Positions 22,305 through 59,329 of a stretch of DNA of 64,000 bases are shown here, piece after piece. The stretch comes from Candidatus Daviesbacteria bacterium (GTDB lineage Bacteria; Patescibacteriota; Microgenomatia; Daviesbacterales; UBA10151). The DNA lies in contig JAQUSJ010000001.1 of the NCBI GenBank assembly GCA_028715175.1, forward strand, positions 148,356-212,355, given 5' to 3'. Position numbers and translations under genes: made by a program. Under the pieces are notes generated by a model, which worked only from the letters and a program-made list of their open reading frames with translations, was not told the DNA's origin and did no database searches. The stretch's first letter is position 1, and every line of letters begins with the position of its first letter.

Positions 22305-22775
22305 ATGCCAACTATTAATCAATTAGTTAGAAAAGGTAGAAAAAAGATCGTTAAAAAGATTAAAGCTACGGCTTTAAGACGTAGTTTTAATGCCAAAGAC
22401 AGGAGATATACCCAAGATTTCAGCCCGCAAAAACGGGGAGTTGTTACTTTGGTTAAAACTATGACTCCAAAAAAACCAAACTCAGCACTCAGAAAAGTGG
22501 CCAGAGTAAGACTTTCCAACAGAACTGAGGTGACGGCATATATTCAAGGTGAAGGTCACTCGTTAGCAGAACACGGAATTGTGCTAGTCCGGGGCGGCAG
22601 GGTGAAGGATTTGCCGGGAGTGAAATACCATTTAGTCAGAGGTAAGTTCGATCTGGTAGGAGTAGTAGGTAGAAAACAAGGTAGATCAAGATACGGTACA
22701 AAAAGCGGAGGAGGCGGACCGGTGCCCAGAGCGGCTGCGCCTCCGCCAGCTGGCGGACCAACTCCAGCAGTATGA
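22305..22775 (+). CDS. rpsL: 30S ribosomal protein S12 with an unusual GC-rich 24-aa C-terminal extension
   Basis: [11 protein letters not shown]...KYHLVRG S12 core; tail [23 protein letters not shown]. Confidence 0.9.
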
Positions 22776-27975: not shown

Positions 27976-27983
27976 GCTTATTT

Positions 27984-28039
27984 GTCATTCTGAACGTAGT
28001 GAAGAATCTAATTGGATTTTTCGTTTTACTCAGGATGAC
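27984..28039. repeat. Dual-hairpin palindromic repeat element (GTCATTC...hairpin...GAATC / GATT...hairpin...GATGAC), copy 1
   Basis: Two about 25-nt units in inverted orientation (gtcattctgaacgtagtgaagaatc / gatttttcgttttactcaggatgac). A near-identical element is at 50127-50182 and a related one at 31218-31288. Confidence 0.6.
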
Positions 28040-28088
28040 AATTTAGTATAATGCACATTGAAAGGGAAATCCCTAAAGGGATTATAAT

Positions 28089-28397
28089 ATGCCAAGAGGA
28101 CGAATCAGAGTAAAACTGAAGAGTTACGATCATCGGGTATTAGATAATACCTGTGAATCCCTTTTGGATACAGCCCTTAGAACCGGTGCCAAAATAGTCG
28201 GGCCAATCCTCCTTCCTACAAAAACTGAGCGCATTACGGTTTTAACTTCCCCCCATACAGACAAAGACTCAAGAGAAGCTTTTGAAATAAAAACCCACAA
28301 AAGAATGATTGATATTGTGGAACCTACCCAAAAAACCATTGATTCTCTCATGCATCTTGAAATCCCAGCCGGGGTTGATATTGAAGTAAAGATGTAG
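28089..28397 (+). CDS. rpsJ: 30S ribosomal protein S10
   Basis: IRVKLKSYDHRVLD...S10 family; 102 aa. Confidence 0.9.
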   Translation: MPRGRIRVKLKSYDHRVLDNTCESLLDTALRTGAKIVGPILLPTKTERITVLTSPHTDKDSREAFEIKTHKRMIDIVEPTQKTIDSLMHLEIPAGVDIEVKM

Positions 28398-28398
28398 C

Positions 28399-28992
28399 AT
28401 GTCTAAATTTAAGGTTTTAGGATTTATTAATTGCCTTTTAGCAATTTTGCCTATTGTCGTTCGGTATCCTCTTAATTTAGTTTTCTTATTTTCATTAGGA
28501 CTAAATATTTATTTAGGATATAAATTACTTTGGGAACACTATGATCTAACAAAATTTAAACAATATTCAACTCTGACTTTCTTAACTGTTTTTTGGCTCA
28601 TTTGGGGTTTGATCGGATATATTTTTGCGTCAGGGTTTGTTTACCCAATAATCTCTCTTGTGCCAATTACTGGAATTTTTATCTTTATTAGGAAACTTTC
28701 GGTTAAACTGGCTTTACTTGTTTCCTTTGCTACATTTTTAATTGTTGTCCAAACGATAGCTTGGAGATTTGAAGAAGATTATTGCTGGAAGAAAGGGTAT
28801 GAAATGGCTGTAGGTAAACTAGGAACGATGGTTGTTCCTGGCCAAGAAGCTAAAAATTTATTCGGCAGTGATATTGATATTTCTGCATCTGGTTCTGCTG
28901 AAGTTGGTACAGCCGCATATTACCATTTTAAGTGTCATCAGGATTTTGATTTGGGTAGAGTACTGAGAGAAAAATATATCCCAAAGAAGTAA
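28399..28992 (+). CDS. Hypothetical polytopic membrane protein inserted between rpsJ and rplC
   Basis: Starts 2 nt after the rpsJ stop (coupled); 4-5 predicted TM helices; no family recognised. Confidence 0.5.
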   Translation: MSKFKVLGFINCLLAILPIVVRYPLNLVFLFSLGLNIYLGYKLLWEHYDLTKFKQYSTLTFLTVFWLIWGLIGYIFASGFVYPIISLVPITGIFIFIRKLSVKLALLVSFATFLIVVQTIAWRFEEDYCWKKGYEMAVGKLGTMVVPGQEAKNLFGSDIDISASGSAEVGTAAYYHFKCHQDFDLGRVLREKYIPKK

Positions 28993-29162
28993 ATATAAAT
29001 TCACCTCTCTTGCATTTAGCCTCGAGTTTGTGTTAGAATTTCCTTACATGATTAGGTCAGGTTAAATAATTTAACCTAAACTACGTTCATGTAAACTGAA
29101 CGTAGTAAAATTTCAGTAGATCGCGCGTCCTGAAACGATACGGCGAATCTAGCGAGATACTG

Positions 29163-29197
29163 AGTGAGCTTCGCCTAGGCGAACTCACTCTTTTTAG
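29163..29197 (+). terminator. Attenuator/terminator-like hairpin plus T tract 10 nt upstream of the rplC start
   Basis: gagtgagcttcgcc-tag-ggcgaactcactc (13-bp stem with one bulge) followed by ttttt. No room for a promoter before rplC, so it is probably a regulated read-through attenuator. Confidence 0.45.
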
Positions 29198-29207
29198 TGC
29201 AAAAATT

Positions 29208-29999
29208 ATGATAAGTACACTTTTAGGTATAAAAAAGGAAATGACGAGTGTTTATGATTCCCGCGGAAGAAGGGTGGGAGCTACCGTTGTACAAATTTCA
29301 CCTAATTTGGTGACTCAAATAAAAACTACCGATGGTAAAGATGGTTACAGCGCAGTCCAGCTAGGTTATGGAACCAAAAAATCAGTCAAAAAACCTCAGC
29401 TTGGACACGGGAAAAAAGCTGGAATTGAAACTCCGATTAGATGGTTTAGGGAAGTTAAAATCAAGGAAGAAAATCCCTCGACTACGCTCGGGACTATAGA
29501 GCCTGGAACAGAAATTAAACTGGACCAGGTTTTTTCAATAGGAGATGCAGTAAAAGCGACAGGTATTTCTAAAGGTAAAGGTTTTCAAGGTGGAGTGAGG
29601 CGTCACGGCTTTCATGGCGGACCAAAGACTCACGGTCAATCAGATAGGTTGCGAGCTCCGGGCGCAATTGGTTCAGGTACTACCCCGGGAAGAGTTTATA
29701 AGGGCAAAAAGATGGCAGGTCATATGGGTAGTAGCGGAGCAAGTACCAAGAATTTAGAAGTCGTAGGGTTAAATAAAAATGATAATTTATTGATTATTAA
29801 AGGCGCAATTCCGGGGCCGGTGAATAATTTAGTTTTAATTACAAAATTAGGAAGAGTAAAAGGTTACACTCCGCCACCGGAAGAAAAACCATCGGAAGAA
29901 GAATTAAGCGAAGAGAAGCAAGAATCAAGCAAAGAAACAGAAGAGCCAAAGACTGAAGAAGCAAAGGTGGAACAAAAAGGAGAAGAAAATGCCAGTTAA
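29208..29999 (+). CDS. rplC: 50S ribosomal protein L3 with an acidic C-terminal extension
   Basis: L3 core (GKGFQGGVRRHGF...). About 45-aa Glu/Lys/Ser-rich tail. Confidence 0.9.
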   Translation: MISTLLGIKKEMTSVYDSRGRRVGATVVQISPNLVTQIKTTDGKDGYSAVQLGYGTKKSVKKPQLGHGKKAGIETPIRWFREVKIKEENPSTTLGTIEPGTEIKLDQVFSIGDAVKATGISKGKGFQGGVRRHGFHGGPKTHGQSDRLRAPGAIGSGTTPGRVYKGKKMAGHMGSSGASTKNLEVVGLNKNDNLLIIKGAIPGPVNNLVLITKLGRVKGYTPPPEEKPSEEELSEEKQESSKETEEPKTEEAKVEQKGEENAS

Positions 30000-46283: not shown

Positions 46284-46308
46284 ATAGTTTATGGTTTACT
46301 AGTAAATA

Positions 46309-46448
46309 CATCAAGAGTCTACGTTCATGTAAGCTGAACGTGGCGGCAACCGGAAAGTAATCGGTGCCAATCCCGATGTAATATCGGGAGATGTGGTCTT
46401 AAGTTTTAGGACAAACTTTATCTAGACCTCTCTTGATGAGAGGTTTTT
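46309..46448 (+). promoter_or_regulatory. Candidate SAM-I-like riboswitch with terminator expression platform in the metK leader (atypical: no P2 arm)
   Basis: P1 CAUCAAGAG...AGAUG; GGCAACC at 46345-46351; GGUGCCAAU at 46363-46371; P4 hairpin cccgauguaauaucggg. Terminator ccucucuugaugagagg plus UUUUU ends 2 nt before the metK ATG and is complementary to the P1 5' strand. Confidence 0.4.
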
Positions 46449-46450
46449 AA

Positions 46451-47566
46451 ATGGTAAAAAATAATGGGGTAACAACTTTTACATCTGAGTCGGTTTGCGC
46501 CGGTCATCCGGATAAAATTTGCGACCAAATCTCCGATGCAATTTTGGATGCTGTTTTAACTCAGGATAGATTCGGTCATGTAGCTTGCGAAACACTAGTC
46601 GGATTTAACAGAGTAGTAATTTCCGGCGAAATTACAGCTAACGCTAAAGTAAATTATGAAAGTATTGCCAGAGAACAAATCAAGAGACTTGGTTATAAAG
46701 ATCCTAAATTGAATTTTTCCGATAAATCGCATATAGAAAACTATCTGCATGAACAATCGCAAGAAATTGCAATAGGGGTTGATGGTAAGGGCGCAGGCGA
46801 TCAAGGTATGATGTTCGGATTTGCTTGTAATGAAACTCCACAGCTAATGCCTCTTCCTATAACTCTTGCTCATGGTTTAACGAGACGAATGGATTATGTC
46901 AGAGAAGAAGGCTTAGTTGACTACCTTAGGCCGGATGGCAAAAGTCAGGTAACTGTGGAATATAGGAATGGCAGACCATTGAAAGTTTTGCAAGTAATTA
47001 TTGCCGTGCCACATAAAGAATCAGTTCTTTTAAGTCAAGTTAAAAAAGATATTTATAATGCAGTTGTCGTACCTGTCTTGGACCAGTTTGGCTTTAAATT
47101 AAATATCAAAGATTTGATTGTCAACGGAACAGGTGTCTGGCATAATGGTGGACCAGCTGCTGATTGTGGAGTAACCGGAAGGAAAATAGTTGTTGATGGA
47201 TACGGAGGTTATGCCAGAGTTGGAGGTGGAGCTTTTTCCGGAAAGGACCCGACAAAAGTTGATAGGTCAGGAGCATATGCTGCCAGGTTTTTGGCCAAAA
47301 ATATAGTTGCCAATAAATTGGCTGATAAAGCGGAGGTAAGACTAGCATATTTTATTGGAGCAAAAAAACCTTCTATGCAGGATGTAGAAACTTTTGGTAC
47401 TAACAAAAAGTCTCACAAGGTAATACTTTCTTTTATGAATAGTATTTTAGATACATCAGTTTCCGGAATCTTGAAAGCTCTGGATTTACAAAGACCAATT
47501 TATCTGCCAACAGCAGCTTATGGTCACTTCGGCAGGGAAGAGTTCCCCTGGGAAAAAGTTGTTTAG
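46451..47566 (+). CDS. metK: S-adenosylmethionine synthetase
   Basis: TSESVCAGHPDKICDQISDAILDA, GAGDQGMMFGFA, GGAFSGKDPTKVDRSGAYAARF. Confidence 0.9.
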   Translation: MVKNNGVTTFTSESVCAGHPDKICDQISDAILDAVLTQDRFGHVACETLVGFNRVVISGEITANAKVNYESIAREQIKRLGYKDPKLNFSDKSHIENYLHEQSQEIAIGVDGKGAGDQGMMFGFACNETPQLMPLPITLAHGLTRRMDYVREEGLVDYLRPDGKSQVTVEYRNGRPLKVLQVIIAVPHKESVLLSQVKKDIYNAVVVPVLDQFGFKLNIKDLIVNGTGVWHNGGPAADCGVTGRKIVVDGYGGYARVGGGAFSGKDPTKVDRSGAYAARFLAKNIVANKLADKAEVRLAYFIGAKKPSMQDVETFGTNKKSHKVILSFMNSILDTSVSGILKALDLQRPIYLPTAAYGHFGREEFPWEKVV

Positions 47567-50121: not shown

Positions 50122-50126
50122 CAAAT

Positions 50127-50182
50127 GTCATTCTGAACGAAGTGAAGAATCTAATTAGATCTTTCGTTTTACTCAGGATGAC
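50127..50182. repeat. Dual-hairpin palindromic repeat element, copy 3 (near-identical to 27984-28039)
   Basis: gtcattctgaacgaagtgaagaatc ... gatctttcgttttactcaggatgac. It abuts the recX start codon and accounts for the spurious MKNLIRSFVLLRMTI extension. Confidence 0.6.
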
Positions 50183-50186
50183 AATT

Positions 50187-59029: not shown

Positions 59030-59286
59030 ACGCCTAGGAAGAAGGATGATCGGTCGCCTTAGGCGACAGGAAAGTCCAGACAGCATAAAGCAGGGTGGTC
59101 CGATGTAAATCGGACACGGGTAACCGCTAGTTAGAGCAACAGTGACGAACCGAGGTCATGCTCGGGTGAAACGTGGCAATCCTCCCCGCTGCAATCCTAG
59201 AACCGACAGAGTTGCTTGCTCAATTGTTGAAATCAGGAGCATTAGATAAATGATCGTCTAAAAACAGAATCTGGCTTACTAGCTTC
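59030..59286 (+). ncRNA. rnpB: RNase P RNA (compact bacterial type)
   Basis: P1 gccuaggaag / cuuccuaggc (59032-59041 / 59273-59282). P4 strands GGAAAGUCCAGAC and ACAGAAUCUGGCUUA match the universal P4 consensus. AGCAGGGUGG and extended -10 tgTATAAT lie just upstream. Confidence 0.7.
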
Positions 59287-59329
59287 CTAGGCATTTTTCT
59301 TCTATTTTTCTCATTGTATACTTATATAA

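What the first reader, a model, noticed from the sequence alone, without database searches (positions are those of the whole stretch)
46309..46448. metK leader resembles a SAM-I riboswitch whose P2/P3 arm is replaced by a dispersed repeat hairpin
Upstream of metK the sequence has SAM-I hallmarks: P1 (CAUCAAGAG...AGAUG), GGCAACC, GGUGCCAAU, a P4 hairpin, and a terminator plus U tract ending 2 nt before the ATG. The terminator 5' half (cucuugaug) is complementary to the P1 5' strand. In place of the canonical P2 kink-turn/P3 region there is only the hairpin acguucauguaagcugaacgu. That hairpin is a copy of a hairpin also found in the rplC leader (29081-29105) and is related to the GTCAT repeat unit. 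Either this is a minimal SAM-I/IV-like variant, or a repeat element has invaded or been co-opted into a riboswitch aptamer.
Basis: partly seen in the sequence, partly recalled or inferred. Interest (0 to 1): 0.55.

Follow-up and report, generated by a model that had tools for sequence, protein, structure and literature searches.

The report
SAM-I/IV riboswitch with repeat-derived P2
The metK leader of this candidate-phyla-radiation bacterium is an ordinary member of the known SAM-I/IV riboswitch class, whose normal plain P2 hairpin has recently been overwritten by a copy of a 25-base palindromic repeat that also sits in the rplC leader.

Summary
Window 46308-46448 is a SAM-clan riboswitch with a terminator, in front of metK, in a Daviesbacteria-like CPR genome. 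It is not a damaged SAM-I. Its parts (P1, unbroken P2, P3, junction P4, 3' hairpin P5, L3-tail pseudoknot PK-2) match the known SAM-I/IV class, which is defined by lacking the P2 kink-turn. Orthologous leaders pass Rfam's SAM-I/IV threshold (up to 53 bits). The window's copy is sub-threshold for every Rfam SAM model. A covariance model built only from relatives finds it as the single hit in 64 kb (47.6 bits, E 2e-11).

All 25 nt of P2 (46319-46343) match 29081-29105 at 23/25, while P2 is only about 48% identical to the closest relative's P2 and the rest of the leader is 73-92% identical. In the rplC leader the palindrome is a lineage-specific insertion flanked by TAAA. Related copies, one nested in the other and flanked by TTTA, fill P5 of another species' metK riboswitch.

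So a small, probably mobile palindrome has replaced a peripheral helix with no known tertiary role. The riboswitch class is known; the repeat side story is modestly interesting.

The parts
46292..46300 (+). Candidate extended -10 promoter element TGGTTTACT, with TTGTCA at 46272-77 lying 17 nt upstream of the hexamer TTTACT
   Evidence: The block TATGGTTTACT is conserved just upstream of P1 in relatives. The sigma-70 consensus scan did not flag it. Inferred only.
46308..46312 (+). P1 5' strand (ACAUC). It pairs with 46390-46394 and extends by U.G to 46307/46395
   Evidence: MFE fold. CM alignments. P1 pairs covary across 14 leaders.
46313..46318 (+). J1/2 AAGAGU, conserved SAM-clan core
   Evidence: Invariant AAGAG in relatives. 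Aligned to the core in Rfam SAM and in model R1.
46319..46343 (+). P2: 9-bp plain hairpin with a 7-nt loop and no internal loop. The whole helix is a copy of the 25-nt palindrome
   Evidence: 23/25 identical to 29081-29105. -9.6 kcal/mol. Only 38-52% identical to relatives' P2, while flanking segments are 73-92% identical to the closest leader, L163.
46345..46368 (+). P3 (GGCA-A-CCGG / UCGG-UGCC with bulged A) with loop L3 AAAGUAA at 46354-60. It holds the SAM-clan ligand-binding core
   Evidence: P3 pairs are invariant or compensated in 14 leaders.
46354..46358 (+). PK-2 5' strand (AAAGU in L3), proposed to pair with 46415-46419
   Evidence: 5 bp. Not significant alone (608/2000 shuffles). 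It sits at the position where relatives have 8 bp (L176 3/2000; L082 7/2000) or covarying pairs (L081 UUUUAU:AUAAAA).
46369..46371 (+). J3/4 (AAU), too short to be a PK-1 partner
   Evidence: Sequence.
46372..46388 (+). P4 hairpin inside the four-way junction
   Evidence: MFE fold. P4 base pairs covary.
46390..46394 (+). P1 3' strand (GAUGU)
46396..46412 (+). P5 hairpin directly 3' of P1 (GUCUUAA-GUU-UUAGGAC)
   Evidence: MFE fold. A hairpin occupies this position in all 13 leaders, in the Rfam RF01725 consensus and in env87 (PMC5393176).
46415..46419 (+). PK-2 3' strand (ACUUU) in the tail after P5
   Evidence: Same topology as PK-2 of SAM-IV and SAM-I/IV (PMC6890682).
46425..46448 (+). Intrinsic terminator (stem CCUCUC/GAGAGG extended by A.U pairs, then the U tract). 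Its 5' half and loop, CUCUUGAUG 46430-38, form the antiterminator with CAUCAAGAG 46309-17. Its 3' half GAGAGG doubles as an SD-like sequence 7 nt from the AUG
   Evidence: -12.4 kcal/mol. Conserved in relatives. The antiterminator is the MFE of nascent RNA ending at 46439. Not flagged by the simple terminator scan.
46451..47566 (+). metK (methionine adenosyltransferase, 371 aa), the regulated gene
   Evidence: Homologues carry PF00438/PF02772/PF02773 and are named methionine adenosyltransferase. Conserved pgm-metK synteny.
29081..29105 (+). Second copy of the 25-nt palindrome (CTACGTTCA-TGTAAAC-TGAACGTAG), inserted in the rplC leader and flanked by TAAA on both sides
   Evidence: Present in an independent assembly of the same organism (L169). 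Absent from the otherwise conserved leaders of L170, L171 and L172.
27983..28043 (+). 'GTCAT' 61-nt inverted-repeat element (second copy at 50126-50186). Possibly related to the palindrome through the shared CTGAACGTAG

Best explanation
The metK leader is a SAM-I/IV-class (Rfam RF01725-type) S-adenosylmethionine riboswitch acting as a transcriptional OFF switch.

The aptamer is a four-way junction: P1, an unbroken P2, P3 carrying the conserved SAM-clan core, and a short P4. A P5 hairpin follows, then a tail that can pair with the P3 loop (PK-2).

With SAM bound, P1 and J1/2 are held in the aptamer. The downstream CCUCUC...GAGAGG-U5 hairpin then forms, terminates transcription and also buries the SD-like GAGAGG. 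Without SAM, CAUCAAGAG (P1 5' strand plus J1/2) pairs with CUCUUGAUG in the terminator's 5' half, which prevents the terminator, and metK is expressed.

In this class P2 has no kink-turn and its tip has no known tertiary partner, so its sequence is free to vary. In this genome the whole P2 helix has recently been overwritten by a 25-nt palindrome of a small repeat family. The same palindrome has inserted into the rplC leader, and relatives of it fill P5 of the metK riboswitch in another Daviesbacteria-like species.

Shown here: class architecture, homology, helix covariation, the copy relationship and the insertion polymorphism. Inferred: SAM binding, the switching mechanism, the promoter, PK-2 in this particular copy, and how the palindrome is copied.
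For: Class:
- Rfam SAM (RF00162) aligns P1, P3 and P4 with a 22-nt insert at P2: 29.3 bits, E 9e-5 on the 321-nt search.
- Orthologous leaders in the same pgm-metK synteny hit SAM-I/IV above gathering: L081 53.0, L175 50.2, L180 44.5, L082 42.8 bits against GA 41.1. Five more score 30-38 bits.
- A CM built from 8 relatives, without the window, finds 46306-46396 as its only significant hit in the window: 47.6 bits, E 2.2e-11.
- Across 14 leaders, 97.9% of cells are paired and 12 of 18 pairs show compensatory changes; 0/500 shuffles reach this.
- The MFE fold gives P1-P2-P3-P4, then P5, then the terminator: -53.1 kcal/mol, z -5.95.
- Literature: SAM-I/IV variants lack the P2 internal loop and show no P2-tip pseudoknot (PMC2864571 and its Additional file 1). 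SAM-I/IV has an unsplit P2, no PK-1 and a P4 helix; PK-2 is tied to the P5 stem-loop in SAM-IV (PMC6890682). The env87 sequence parses into the same order of parts (PMC5393176).
- PK-2 is 8 bp in L176 and L082 (3/2000 and 7/2000 shuffles) and covaries in L081.

Switch:
- There is exact 9-nt complementarity between 46309-17 and 46430-38. The antiterminator is the MFE (-49.4 kcal/mol) of RNA ending at 46439.

Repeat:
- P2 matches the rplC hairpin at 23/25.
- Window versus L163 identity is P1/J1-2 92%, P3 92%, P4 73%, post-P1 78%, but P2 48%.
- The rplC copy is absent in L170, L171 and L172 and is flanked by TAAA|...|TAAA.
- L174's P5 holds a 22/25 match with a nested 23/26 copy flanked by TTTA. 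No other match of at least 19/25 occurs in 876 kb of other loci.
Against: - The window's own aptamer does not reach the gathering score of any Rfam SAM model. RF00162 scores 29.3 against 44.4. A lower-scoring match to another model of the SAM clan was suppressed; I take it to be RF01725, and if so it scored below 29.3 against GA 41.1, but the tool did not name it.
- PK-2 in the window is only 5 A/U-rich base pairs and is not significant alone.
- The consensus terminator scan does not call the terminator, and the U tract has only 5 U.
- No ligand-binding or expression data exist.
- The repeat 'family' is tiny in the data available: 2 copies in the window and 2 in L174.
- The P2 copy has no TTTA/TAAA flanks, so the replacement mechanism is unknown.
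- The direction of copying (P2 to rplC leader, the reverse, or from a third locus) cannot be told.
Confidence: 0.8

Rival explanations
1. The shared hairpin is a functional module and not a passive repeat. It would be a binding site for one trans-acting factor (a protein or RNA), placed in both the metK and rplC leaders to couple their regulation, and co-opted as P2.
For: Both window copies lie in 5' leaders that end in terminator-like hairpins. The related copies in L174 also lie in the metK leader. The one stem substitution keeps pairing (U-A to U.G), and the loops differ by a single transition.
Against: The hairpin is absent from the rplC leaders of all three relatives, whose leaders are otherwise highly conserved. 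Relatives' P2 sequences are unrelated to it and to each other. In L174 the element sits in P5, in the opposite loop orientation, and is nested, which fits insertion better than a positioned operator. The loci fetched are biased towards leaders.
Confidence: 0.1
2. The riboswitch has been disabled by the invasion. P2 replacement broke folding or SAM binding, leaving a decaying pseudo-riboswitch or a constitutive terminator or attenuator.
For: Sub-threshold scores against all Rfam SAM models. The single bulged nucleotide near the base of P2 that several relatives carry (the A in ...GAGC-C-GGCAACC in L082, L165, L166 and L180; my own reading of the rows printed) is missing from the perfect 9-bp P2.
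Against: Every core segment, the junction strands, P4, P5, the tail, the terminator and the antiterminator are intact and 73-100% identical to L163 and other relatives. P2 length (9 bp) is within the family range, and other members (L081, L001, L175) also lack the bulge. metK is intact and would be permanently terminated if the switch were dead.
Confidence: 0.07
3. It is a new, minimal SAM-binding class (a SAM-I derivative that lost the kink-turn and PK-1) and not a member of any described family.
For: The best Rfam hit for the window itself is SAM-I, and it is sub-threshold with P2 unaligned.
Against: Orthologues pass the SAM-I/IV gathering score. The window is found at E 2e-11 by a model built from those orthologues. 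Every architectural feature is already described for SAM-I/IV (PMC2864571, PMC6890682, PMC5393176).
Confidence: 0.02
4. The two hairpins are similar by chance or by convergence on a stable stem-loop.
For: Hairpins of the generic pattern GTTCA-N-TGAAC are not rare by chance (12 of 100 shuffles give 2 or more).
Against: 23/25 identity including the loop, with 0 matches in 100 shuffles at up to 3 mismatches. A third and fourth related copy occur in L174, and none in 876 kb of other loci.
Confidence: 0.01

Closest known systems
SAM-I/IV variant riboswitch (Rfam RF01725; Weinberg et al. 2010; env87 crystal structure 4L81, Trausch et al. 2014)
   Same: SAM-clan core (AAGAG J1/2; GGCA-A-CC/GG-UGCC P3). 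Unbroken P2 without an internal loop. No PK-1. P4 in the junction. P5 hairpin right after P1. The tail is complementary to the P3 loop (PK-2). It controls a SAM-metabolism gene. Orthologous leaders pass the family's gathering score.
   Different: The window's copy is itself sub-threshold for RF01725. P2 is long (9 bp, against 4 bp in env87) and is made of a repeat element. PK-2 is short and A/U-rich. The expression platform is a terminator/antiterminator, whereas one relative (L180) buries its start codon in P5/PK-2. The host is a CPR (Daviesbacteria-like) bacterium, whereas the family was described mostly from marine metagenomes.
SAM-I (S-box) riboswitch, RF00162
   Same: Four-way junction P1-P4, identical ligand-binding core motifs, a metK target and terminator/antiterminator logic. 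It is the highest-scoring Rfam model for the window's copy (29.3 bits).
   Different: There is no kink-turn in P2 and no PK-1 (J3/4 is only AAU). P5 and PK-2 are present. The score is well below the gathering score of 44.4. True SAM-I leaders with a long P2 do occur in more distant relatives (L002 at 49.8 bits; L083 at 45.6 bits).
SAM-IV riboswitch, RF00634
   Same: P5 hairpin after P1 and a PK-2 between L3 and the 3' tail; the same core.
   Different: SAM-IV has a split P2a/P2b with PK-1 and lacks P4 (PMC6890682). The window RNA has a plain P2 and has P4.
REP/BIME-type and MITE-type small palindromic repeats of bacteria (for example REP, Bor, RPE)
   Same: A short, near-perfect palindrome found at several loci, transcribed as a stable hairpin. 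There is an insertion polymorphism between close relatives, identical 4-nt flanks (TTTA/TAAA) at two events, and self-nested insertion.
   Different: At 25 nt it is shorter than described MITEs. Only four copies have been seen. No transposase or RAYT has been linked to it. Three of the four copies lie inside helices of a riboswitch, which I did not find described in the papers searched.

Membership tests
SAM-I/IV (RF01725) | SAM-clan ligand-binding core: P1, J1/2 AAGAG, P3 GGCA-A-CC/GG-UGCC with bulged A, J3/4 | tested here: met
   Searches align all core positions. They are invariant or compensated across 14 leaders.
SAM-I/IV (RF01725) | P2 is a single unbroken helix with no internal loop or kink-turn (PMC2864571; PMC6890682) | tested here: met
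   P2 is a perfect 9-bp stem with a 7-nt loop.
SAM-I/IV (RF01725) | No PK-1 (P2 tip to J3/4) | tested here: met
   J3/4 is only AAU (46369-71), and the P2 loop UGUAAGC has no complement there (sequence).
SAM-I/IV (RF01725) | P4 helix present in the junction (PMC6890682) | tested here: met
   CCCGAU-GUAAU-AUCGGG at 46372-88. The basal pairs covary.
SAM-I/IV (RF01725) | PK-2 subdomain: hairpin after P1 plus pairing of the P3 loop with the 3' tail | tested here: inconclusive
   P5 is clearly present. The L3:tail pairing AAAGU:ACUUU is 5 bp and not significant alone (608/2000). The family shows 8 bp in L176 and L082 (3 and 7 of 2000) and covariation in L081 at the same position.
SAM-I/IV (RF01725) | Score at or above Rfam's gathering threshold (41.1 bits) | tested here: not met
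   No SAM-family hit at gathering on the window. In the permissive search a lower-scoring match to another model of the SAM clan was suppressed below the 29.3-bit RF00162 hit; the tool did not name it. Four orthologues pass and five are just below. A relatives-only CM gives 47.6 bits, E 2e-11.
SAM-I/IV (RF01725) | Binds SAM and represses the downstream gene | not testable with these tools
   Needs in-line probing or ITC and termination assays.
SAM-I (RF00162) | Kink-turn internal loop in P2, and PK-1 between the P2 loop and J3/4 | tested here: not met
   Plain P2 and a 3-nt J3/4. The CM leaves P2 as an unaligned insert.
SAM-I (RF00162) | Score at or above the gathering threshold (44.4 bits) | tested here: not met
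   29.3 bits.
SAM-IV (RF00634) | Split P2a/P2b with PK-1, and no P4 in the junction | tested here: not met
   Unsplit P2 with P4 present. Definition from PMC6890682.
Mobile palindromic repeat (REP/MITE-like) | Several near-identical copies at unrelated loci | tested here: met
   Two copies in the window and two related copies in L174. None in 876 kb of other loci. The family is small.
Mobile palindromic repeat (REP/MITE-like) | Presence/absence polymorphism with an intact empty site and target-site duplication or a fixed target | tested here: met
   rplC leader: L170 reads AACCTAAA|ATTTCAG and the window reads AACCTAAA|25 nt|TAAA|ATTTCAG. The L174 inner copy is flanked by TTTA|...|TTTA inside the loop GTTTACA. 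The P2 copy has no such flanks.
Mobile palindromic repeat (REP/MITE-like) | Cognate transposase or RAYT, or another demonstrated copying mechanism | not tested
   The window's ORFs were not screened for Y1 or DDE transposases. The rest of the genome is not available.

The most novel reading that the evidence does not exclude
The 25-nt palindrome CTACGTTCA-N7-TGAACGTAG is a very small mobile element of Daviesbacteria-like CPR genomes. It inserts at TTTA, including into its own loop. It preferentially survives in, or is targeted to, the apical parts of helices in structured mRNA leaders, so it remodels the peripheral helices (P2, P5) of a riboswitch without destroying it. Together with the GTCAT-core hairpins seen at helix tips of relatives' riboswitches and in the rplC leader, this would make repeat-driven helix swapping a regular mode of riboswitch evolution in these reduced genomes.
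Probability: 0.3. Interest if true: 0.55.

Novelty: new member of a known kind. Interest (0 to 1): 0.3.

Why it matters
For annotation, SAM-I/IV riboswitches control metK in Daviesbacteria-like CPR bacteria. Several of them, including this one, fall below Rfam thresholds because their peripheral helices (P2, P4, P5, L3) are long or unusual, so standard pipelines will miss them.

For RNA evolution, this is a clean natural experiment. An entire peripheral helix has been exchanged for unrelated repeat DNA while the core, the pseudoknot partner and the expression platform stayed fixed. This fits the structural view that the P2 tip in SAM-I/IV has no tertiary role.

If the palindrome is truly mobile, it would be an unusually small element, and structured leaders would be one of its niches. 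None of this changes what is known about how SAM riboswitches work.

Tried and rejected
- Rfam at gathering on the whole window gave no SAM family. The permissive search was needed.
- MAFFT alignment of the full leaders was unusable in the variable helices. I used hand-anchored parsing (two script failures) and a CM-guided alignment.
- I tested whether the hairpin is a large dispersed family. It is not: there are 2 copies in 64 kb, none in the other 168 loci held at that point, and none in viral contigs.
- I tested whether relatives' rplC leaders carry the hairpin, which would have pointed to a functional module. They do not.
- A possible third copy, CTACG...CGTAG at 22366, lies inside an ORF and was dropped as chance.
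- Rfam on the rplC leader and on the GTCAT element gave only noise.
- The simple promoter and terminator scans did not call the features I infer.
- I looked for a P2-loop pseudoknot partner (PK-1) and found none.
- The literature search for repeats inside riboswitch helices found only general statements. The Trausch 2014 paper is not held, so I used secondary descriptions.

Full report
OBSERVATION

- P1: ACAUC 46308-12 pairs with GAUGU 46390-94.
- J1/2: AAGAGU 46313-18.
- GGCAACC at 46345-51 and GGUGCCAAU at 46363-71.
- A hairpin CCCGAU-GUAAU-AUCGGG at 46372-88.
- A terminator hairpin at 46425-48, whose U tract ends 2 nt before the metK ATG at 46451.
- CUCUUGAUG (46430-38) is the exact reverse complement of CAUCAAGAG (46309-17).

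The hairpin ACGUUCAUGUAAGCUGAACGU (46321-41) recurs at 29083-103 with one mismatch. With its flanking bases, 23 of 25 positions agree. No match is expected by chance.

Two statements do not hold.
- P3 is not missing. GGCAACCGG...UCGGUGCC are the two strands of P3, so only P2 is 'the hairpin'.
- The hairpin is not widely dispersed. The window has two copies.

WHAT ORGANISM AND GENE

The downstream ORF (46451-47566) is methionine adenosyltransferase. Its homologues carry the three S-AdoMet synthetase Pfam domains, and the closest ones (75-97% identity) are named Candidatus Daviesbacteria or Patescibacteria. The upstream gene is a phosphoglucomutase-family gene, and this pgm-metK arrangement is conserved in relatives.

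WHICH RIBOSWITCH CLASS

On the whole window no SAM family reaches Rfam's gathering score. On the leader alone, SAM-I (RF00162) aligns P1, P3 and P4 but leaves P2 as a 22-nt insert: 29.3 bits against a gathering score of 44.4.

I collected orthologous leaders from genome and metagenome contigs and by look-up of MetK relatives. That gave 13 distinct leaders, with MetK identity from 60% to 97%. All share one layout:
- P1 and AAGAG.
- A P2 hairpin of hypervariable sequence.
- C-GGCAACC...GGUGCC (P3).
- A short P4 in the junction (absent in L180).
- The 3' strand of P1.
- A further hairpin (P5).
- A tail that can pair with the P3 loop.

Rfam classifies these leaders as SAM-I/IV (RF01725). L081 (53.0), L175 (50.2), L180 (44.5) and L082 (42.8 bits) pass the gathering score of 41.1. 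L163, L165, L166, L003 and L176 score 30-38 bits. The three with bulky or unusual peripheral helices (window, L161, L174) score slightly better on SAM-I, but sub-threshold.

[quoted passage not shown] - The crystallised env87 RNA (4L81; sequence in PMC5393176) parses as P1, a 4-bp plain P2, P3, junction P4, P1', P5 and a tail pairing with L3 (my own parse of that sequence).

The window RNA has the same parts in the same order.

INDEPENDENT MEMBERSHIP TEST

A covariance model built from eight relatives' aptamer cores, without the window, finds 46306-46396 as the only significant hit in the 64-kb window: 47.6 bits, E 2.2e-11.

In the model-guided alignment of 14 leaders, 97.9% of cells form standard pairs. 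Twelve of 18 pairs show changes on both sides, and no shuffle of 500 reaches these values. Sliding the 3' partners drops pairing to 36-56%. Two caveats apply: the alignment is fitted to the model, and eight of its rows are the seed.

The thermodynamic fold of 46303-46450 reproduces P1-P2-P3-P4, P5 and the terminator: -53.1 kcal/mol, z -5.95.

PK-2

The best Watson-Crick match between L3 and the post-P1 region falls in the tail just after P5 in most leaders.
- L176: 8 bp (3/2000 shuffles).
- L082: 8 bp (7/2000 shuffles).
- L081: 6 bp with a different sequence, UUUUAU:AUAAAA (59/2000).
- L165: 5 bp.
- Window: 5 bp, AAAGU:ACUUU (608/2000), so not significant alone.

I treat PK-2 in the window as likely by homology, not as shown.

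MECHANISM (inferred from the anatomy)

For RNA ending at 46439, before the terminator's 3' half exists, the MFE structure contains the 9-bp helix CAUCAAGAG:CUCUUGAUG and no P1 (-49.4 kcal/mol). The full-length MFE has P1 plus the terminator (-53.1 kcal/mol). The terminator alone folds at -12.4 kcal/mol, and its sequence is conserved in relatives.

This is the standard S-box logic. SAM locks P1 and J1/2, the antiterminator cannot form, and transcription stops. The terminator's 3' half, GAGAGG, lies 7 nt from the AUG and looks like the SD, so the same hairpin may also block translation.

The simple terminator scan missed this hairpin. This is probably because A.U pairs extend the stem into the 5-U tract.

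In L180 the start codon lies inside P5 and the tail lies in the coding region, so that member looks translational.

THE HAIRPIN

P2 is the least conserved segment of the family. Identity of the window's leader to L163, the closest leader overall, is 92% in P1/J1-2, 92% in P3, 73% in J3/4-P4, 78% after P1, and 48% in P2. Identity of P2 to the rplC-leader hairpin is 92%. Even the relative with 97% identical MetK (L161) has an unrelated P2 with an internal loop.

The 25 nt shared with 29081-29105 coincide exactly with the P2 helix, from its first pair (C46319-G46343) to its loop. They are bounded by the conserved AGAG-U and C-GGCAACC. The two differences are transitions: one in the loop, and one turning a U-A pair into U.G.

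In the rplC leader the palindrome is an insertion. The leader downstream of it (UUUCAGUAGAUCGCGCGUCC...AGCGAGAUACUGAGUGAG...CUCACUCUUUUUAGUGCAAAAAUUAUG) is highly conserved in L170, L171 and L172, but none of them has the hairpin.
- L170 reads TTAACCTAAA|ATTTCAG.
- The window, and L169 (an independent assembly with an identical L3), read TTAACCTAAA|CTACGTTCATGTAAACTGAACGTAG|TAAA|ATTTCAG.

A second species (L174, MetK 84% identical) carries related copies in a different helix of the same riboswitch. Its P5 is GTACGTTCAGTTTA|CTACGATTCGGTTTACACGAACGTAG|TTTACATGAATGTAC (-25.5 kcal/mol). Removing the inner 26-nt copy and one TTTA leaves a 25-mer that is 22/25 identical to the reverse complement of the window's element. 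The inner copy is 23/26 identical and is flanked by TTTA on both sides, the same tetranucleotide (TAAA on the other strand) that flanks the rplC insertion. No other match of at least 19/25 occurs in 876 kb of the other fetched loci.

These facts favour a small palindromic repeat that is copied to new sites, over a fixed regulatory module. How it replaced P2 so precisely is unknown, because no flanking duplication is left there.

RELATION TO THE GTCAT ELEMENT

The 61-nt inverted-repeat element at 27983-28043 and 50126-50186 (-25.3 kcal/mol) shares CTGAACGTAG with the rplC copy, or 15/19 when the 3' flank is included. About 0.4% of random 25-mers from the window share a 10-mer with it. A relationship is plausible but not shown.

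Hairpins with the core of that element (YCCYGAGC...TCGARGG) sit at helix tips in relatives: P5 of L166 and L082, L3 of L003 and L001, and the terminator loop of L170's rplC leader. So repeat-derived sequence at the tips of structured-leader helices seems common in this lineage.

VERDICT

This is a known riboswitch class (SAM-I/IV) in a CPR host, working as a transcriptional OFF switch on metK. One peripheral helix has recently been overwritten by a small palindromic repeat. The riboswitch is a new member of a known kind. The repeat behaviour is a modest curiosity that needs a genome-wide census. I found no description of a palindromic repeat replacing a riboswitch helix in the papers searched, but that search was not exhaustive.

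Noticed in passing
window 29106-29207 (rplC leader); L170 1-115; L171 about 1400-1500; L172 about 1400-1500: There is a strongly conserved structured leader upstream of rplC in Daviesbacteria-like genomes: UUUCAGUAGAUCGCGCGUCC..GAAACGAUACGGCG..AGCGAGAUACUGAGUGAG[variable tip]CUCACUCUUUUUAGUGCAAAAAUUAUG. It ends in a terminator-like hairpin just before the start codon. It matches no Rfam family and folds at z -4.75. It is a candidate ribosomal-protein autoregulatory leader or attenuator.
   Followed up: partly
window 28399-28992 (+): A 197-aa ORF, hydrophobic by eye in its translation, sits between rpsJ (28089-28397) and rplC (29208-). In L171, rpsJ is followed directly by the rplC leader, so this gene is an insertion into the S10 operon in the window's lineage.
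   Followed up: no
window 27983-28043 and 50126-50186: The 'GTCAT' element: a 61-nt unit made of two inverted approximately 26-nt halves (TGTCATYCTGA...GAAGAATC). The two copies are 95% identical, and each folds as a long hairpin (-25.3 kcal/mol). One lies between tuf and rpsJ. It matches no Rfam family. A related unit lies just upstream of the riboswitch in L161.
   Followed up: partly
window 29474-29493 (-) inside rplC; 50667 (-); L172 1764 (-) in rplC and 2361 (-) in rplD: The GTCAT-core hairpin motif (TCCCGAGCGTAGTCGAGGGA and variants) occurs on the antisense strand inside ribosomal-protein coding sequences, at the same place in rplC in two species. This recalls in-frame palindromic-element insertions such as the Rickettsia RPEs.
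   Followed up: no
L166 1134, L082 1416, L003 204, L001 2775 (-), L170 72: The same GTCAT-core motif forms the tip of P5 (L166, L082), sits inside the P3 loop (L003, L001), and forms the tip of the rplC-leader terminator (L170). Repeat-derived hairpins at helix tips of structured leaders look recurrent in this lineage.
   Followed up: partly
L161 1040-1203 compared with window 46303-46453 and L163 1064-1203: MetK of L161 is 97% identical to the window's, yet its leader has a different P2 (with an internal loop), a much larger P4 and a different P5. The window's leader is closest to that of L163, whose MetK is 89% identical. This suggests mosaic or recombinational evolution of the leader.
   Followed up: no
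L180 1118-1240: This SAM-I/IV member (44.5 bits) has no P4. Its start codon lies inside P5 (GUCAUUAUGAC), and the PK-2 tail lies within the coding region (GUUUUU:AAAAAC). It looks like a translational variant of the same riboswitch.
   Followed up: partly
window 59034-59294 (+): The bacterial RNase P RNA is only 261 nt long (111 bits), with several helices of the type-A consensus deleted in the alignment. This is consistent with a reduced CPR genome.
   Followed up: no
window 28052-28089 (-): There are weak, sub-threshold matches to CRISPR direct-repeat models (25.3 bits, E 0.005) over a small palindrome (GGGAAATCCCTAAAGGGATT) just upstream of rpsJ. This is probably a leader hairpin and not CRISPR.
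   Followed up: no
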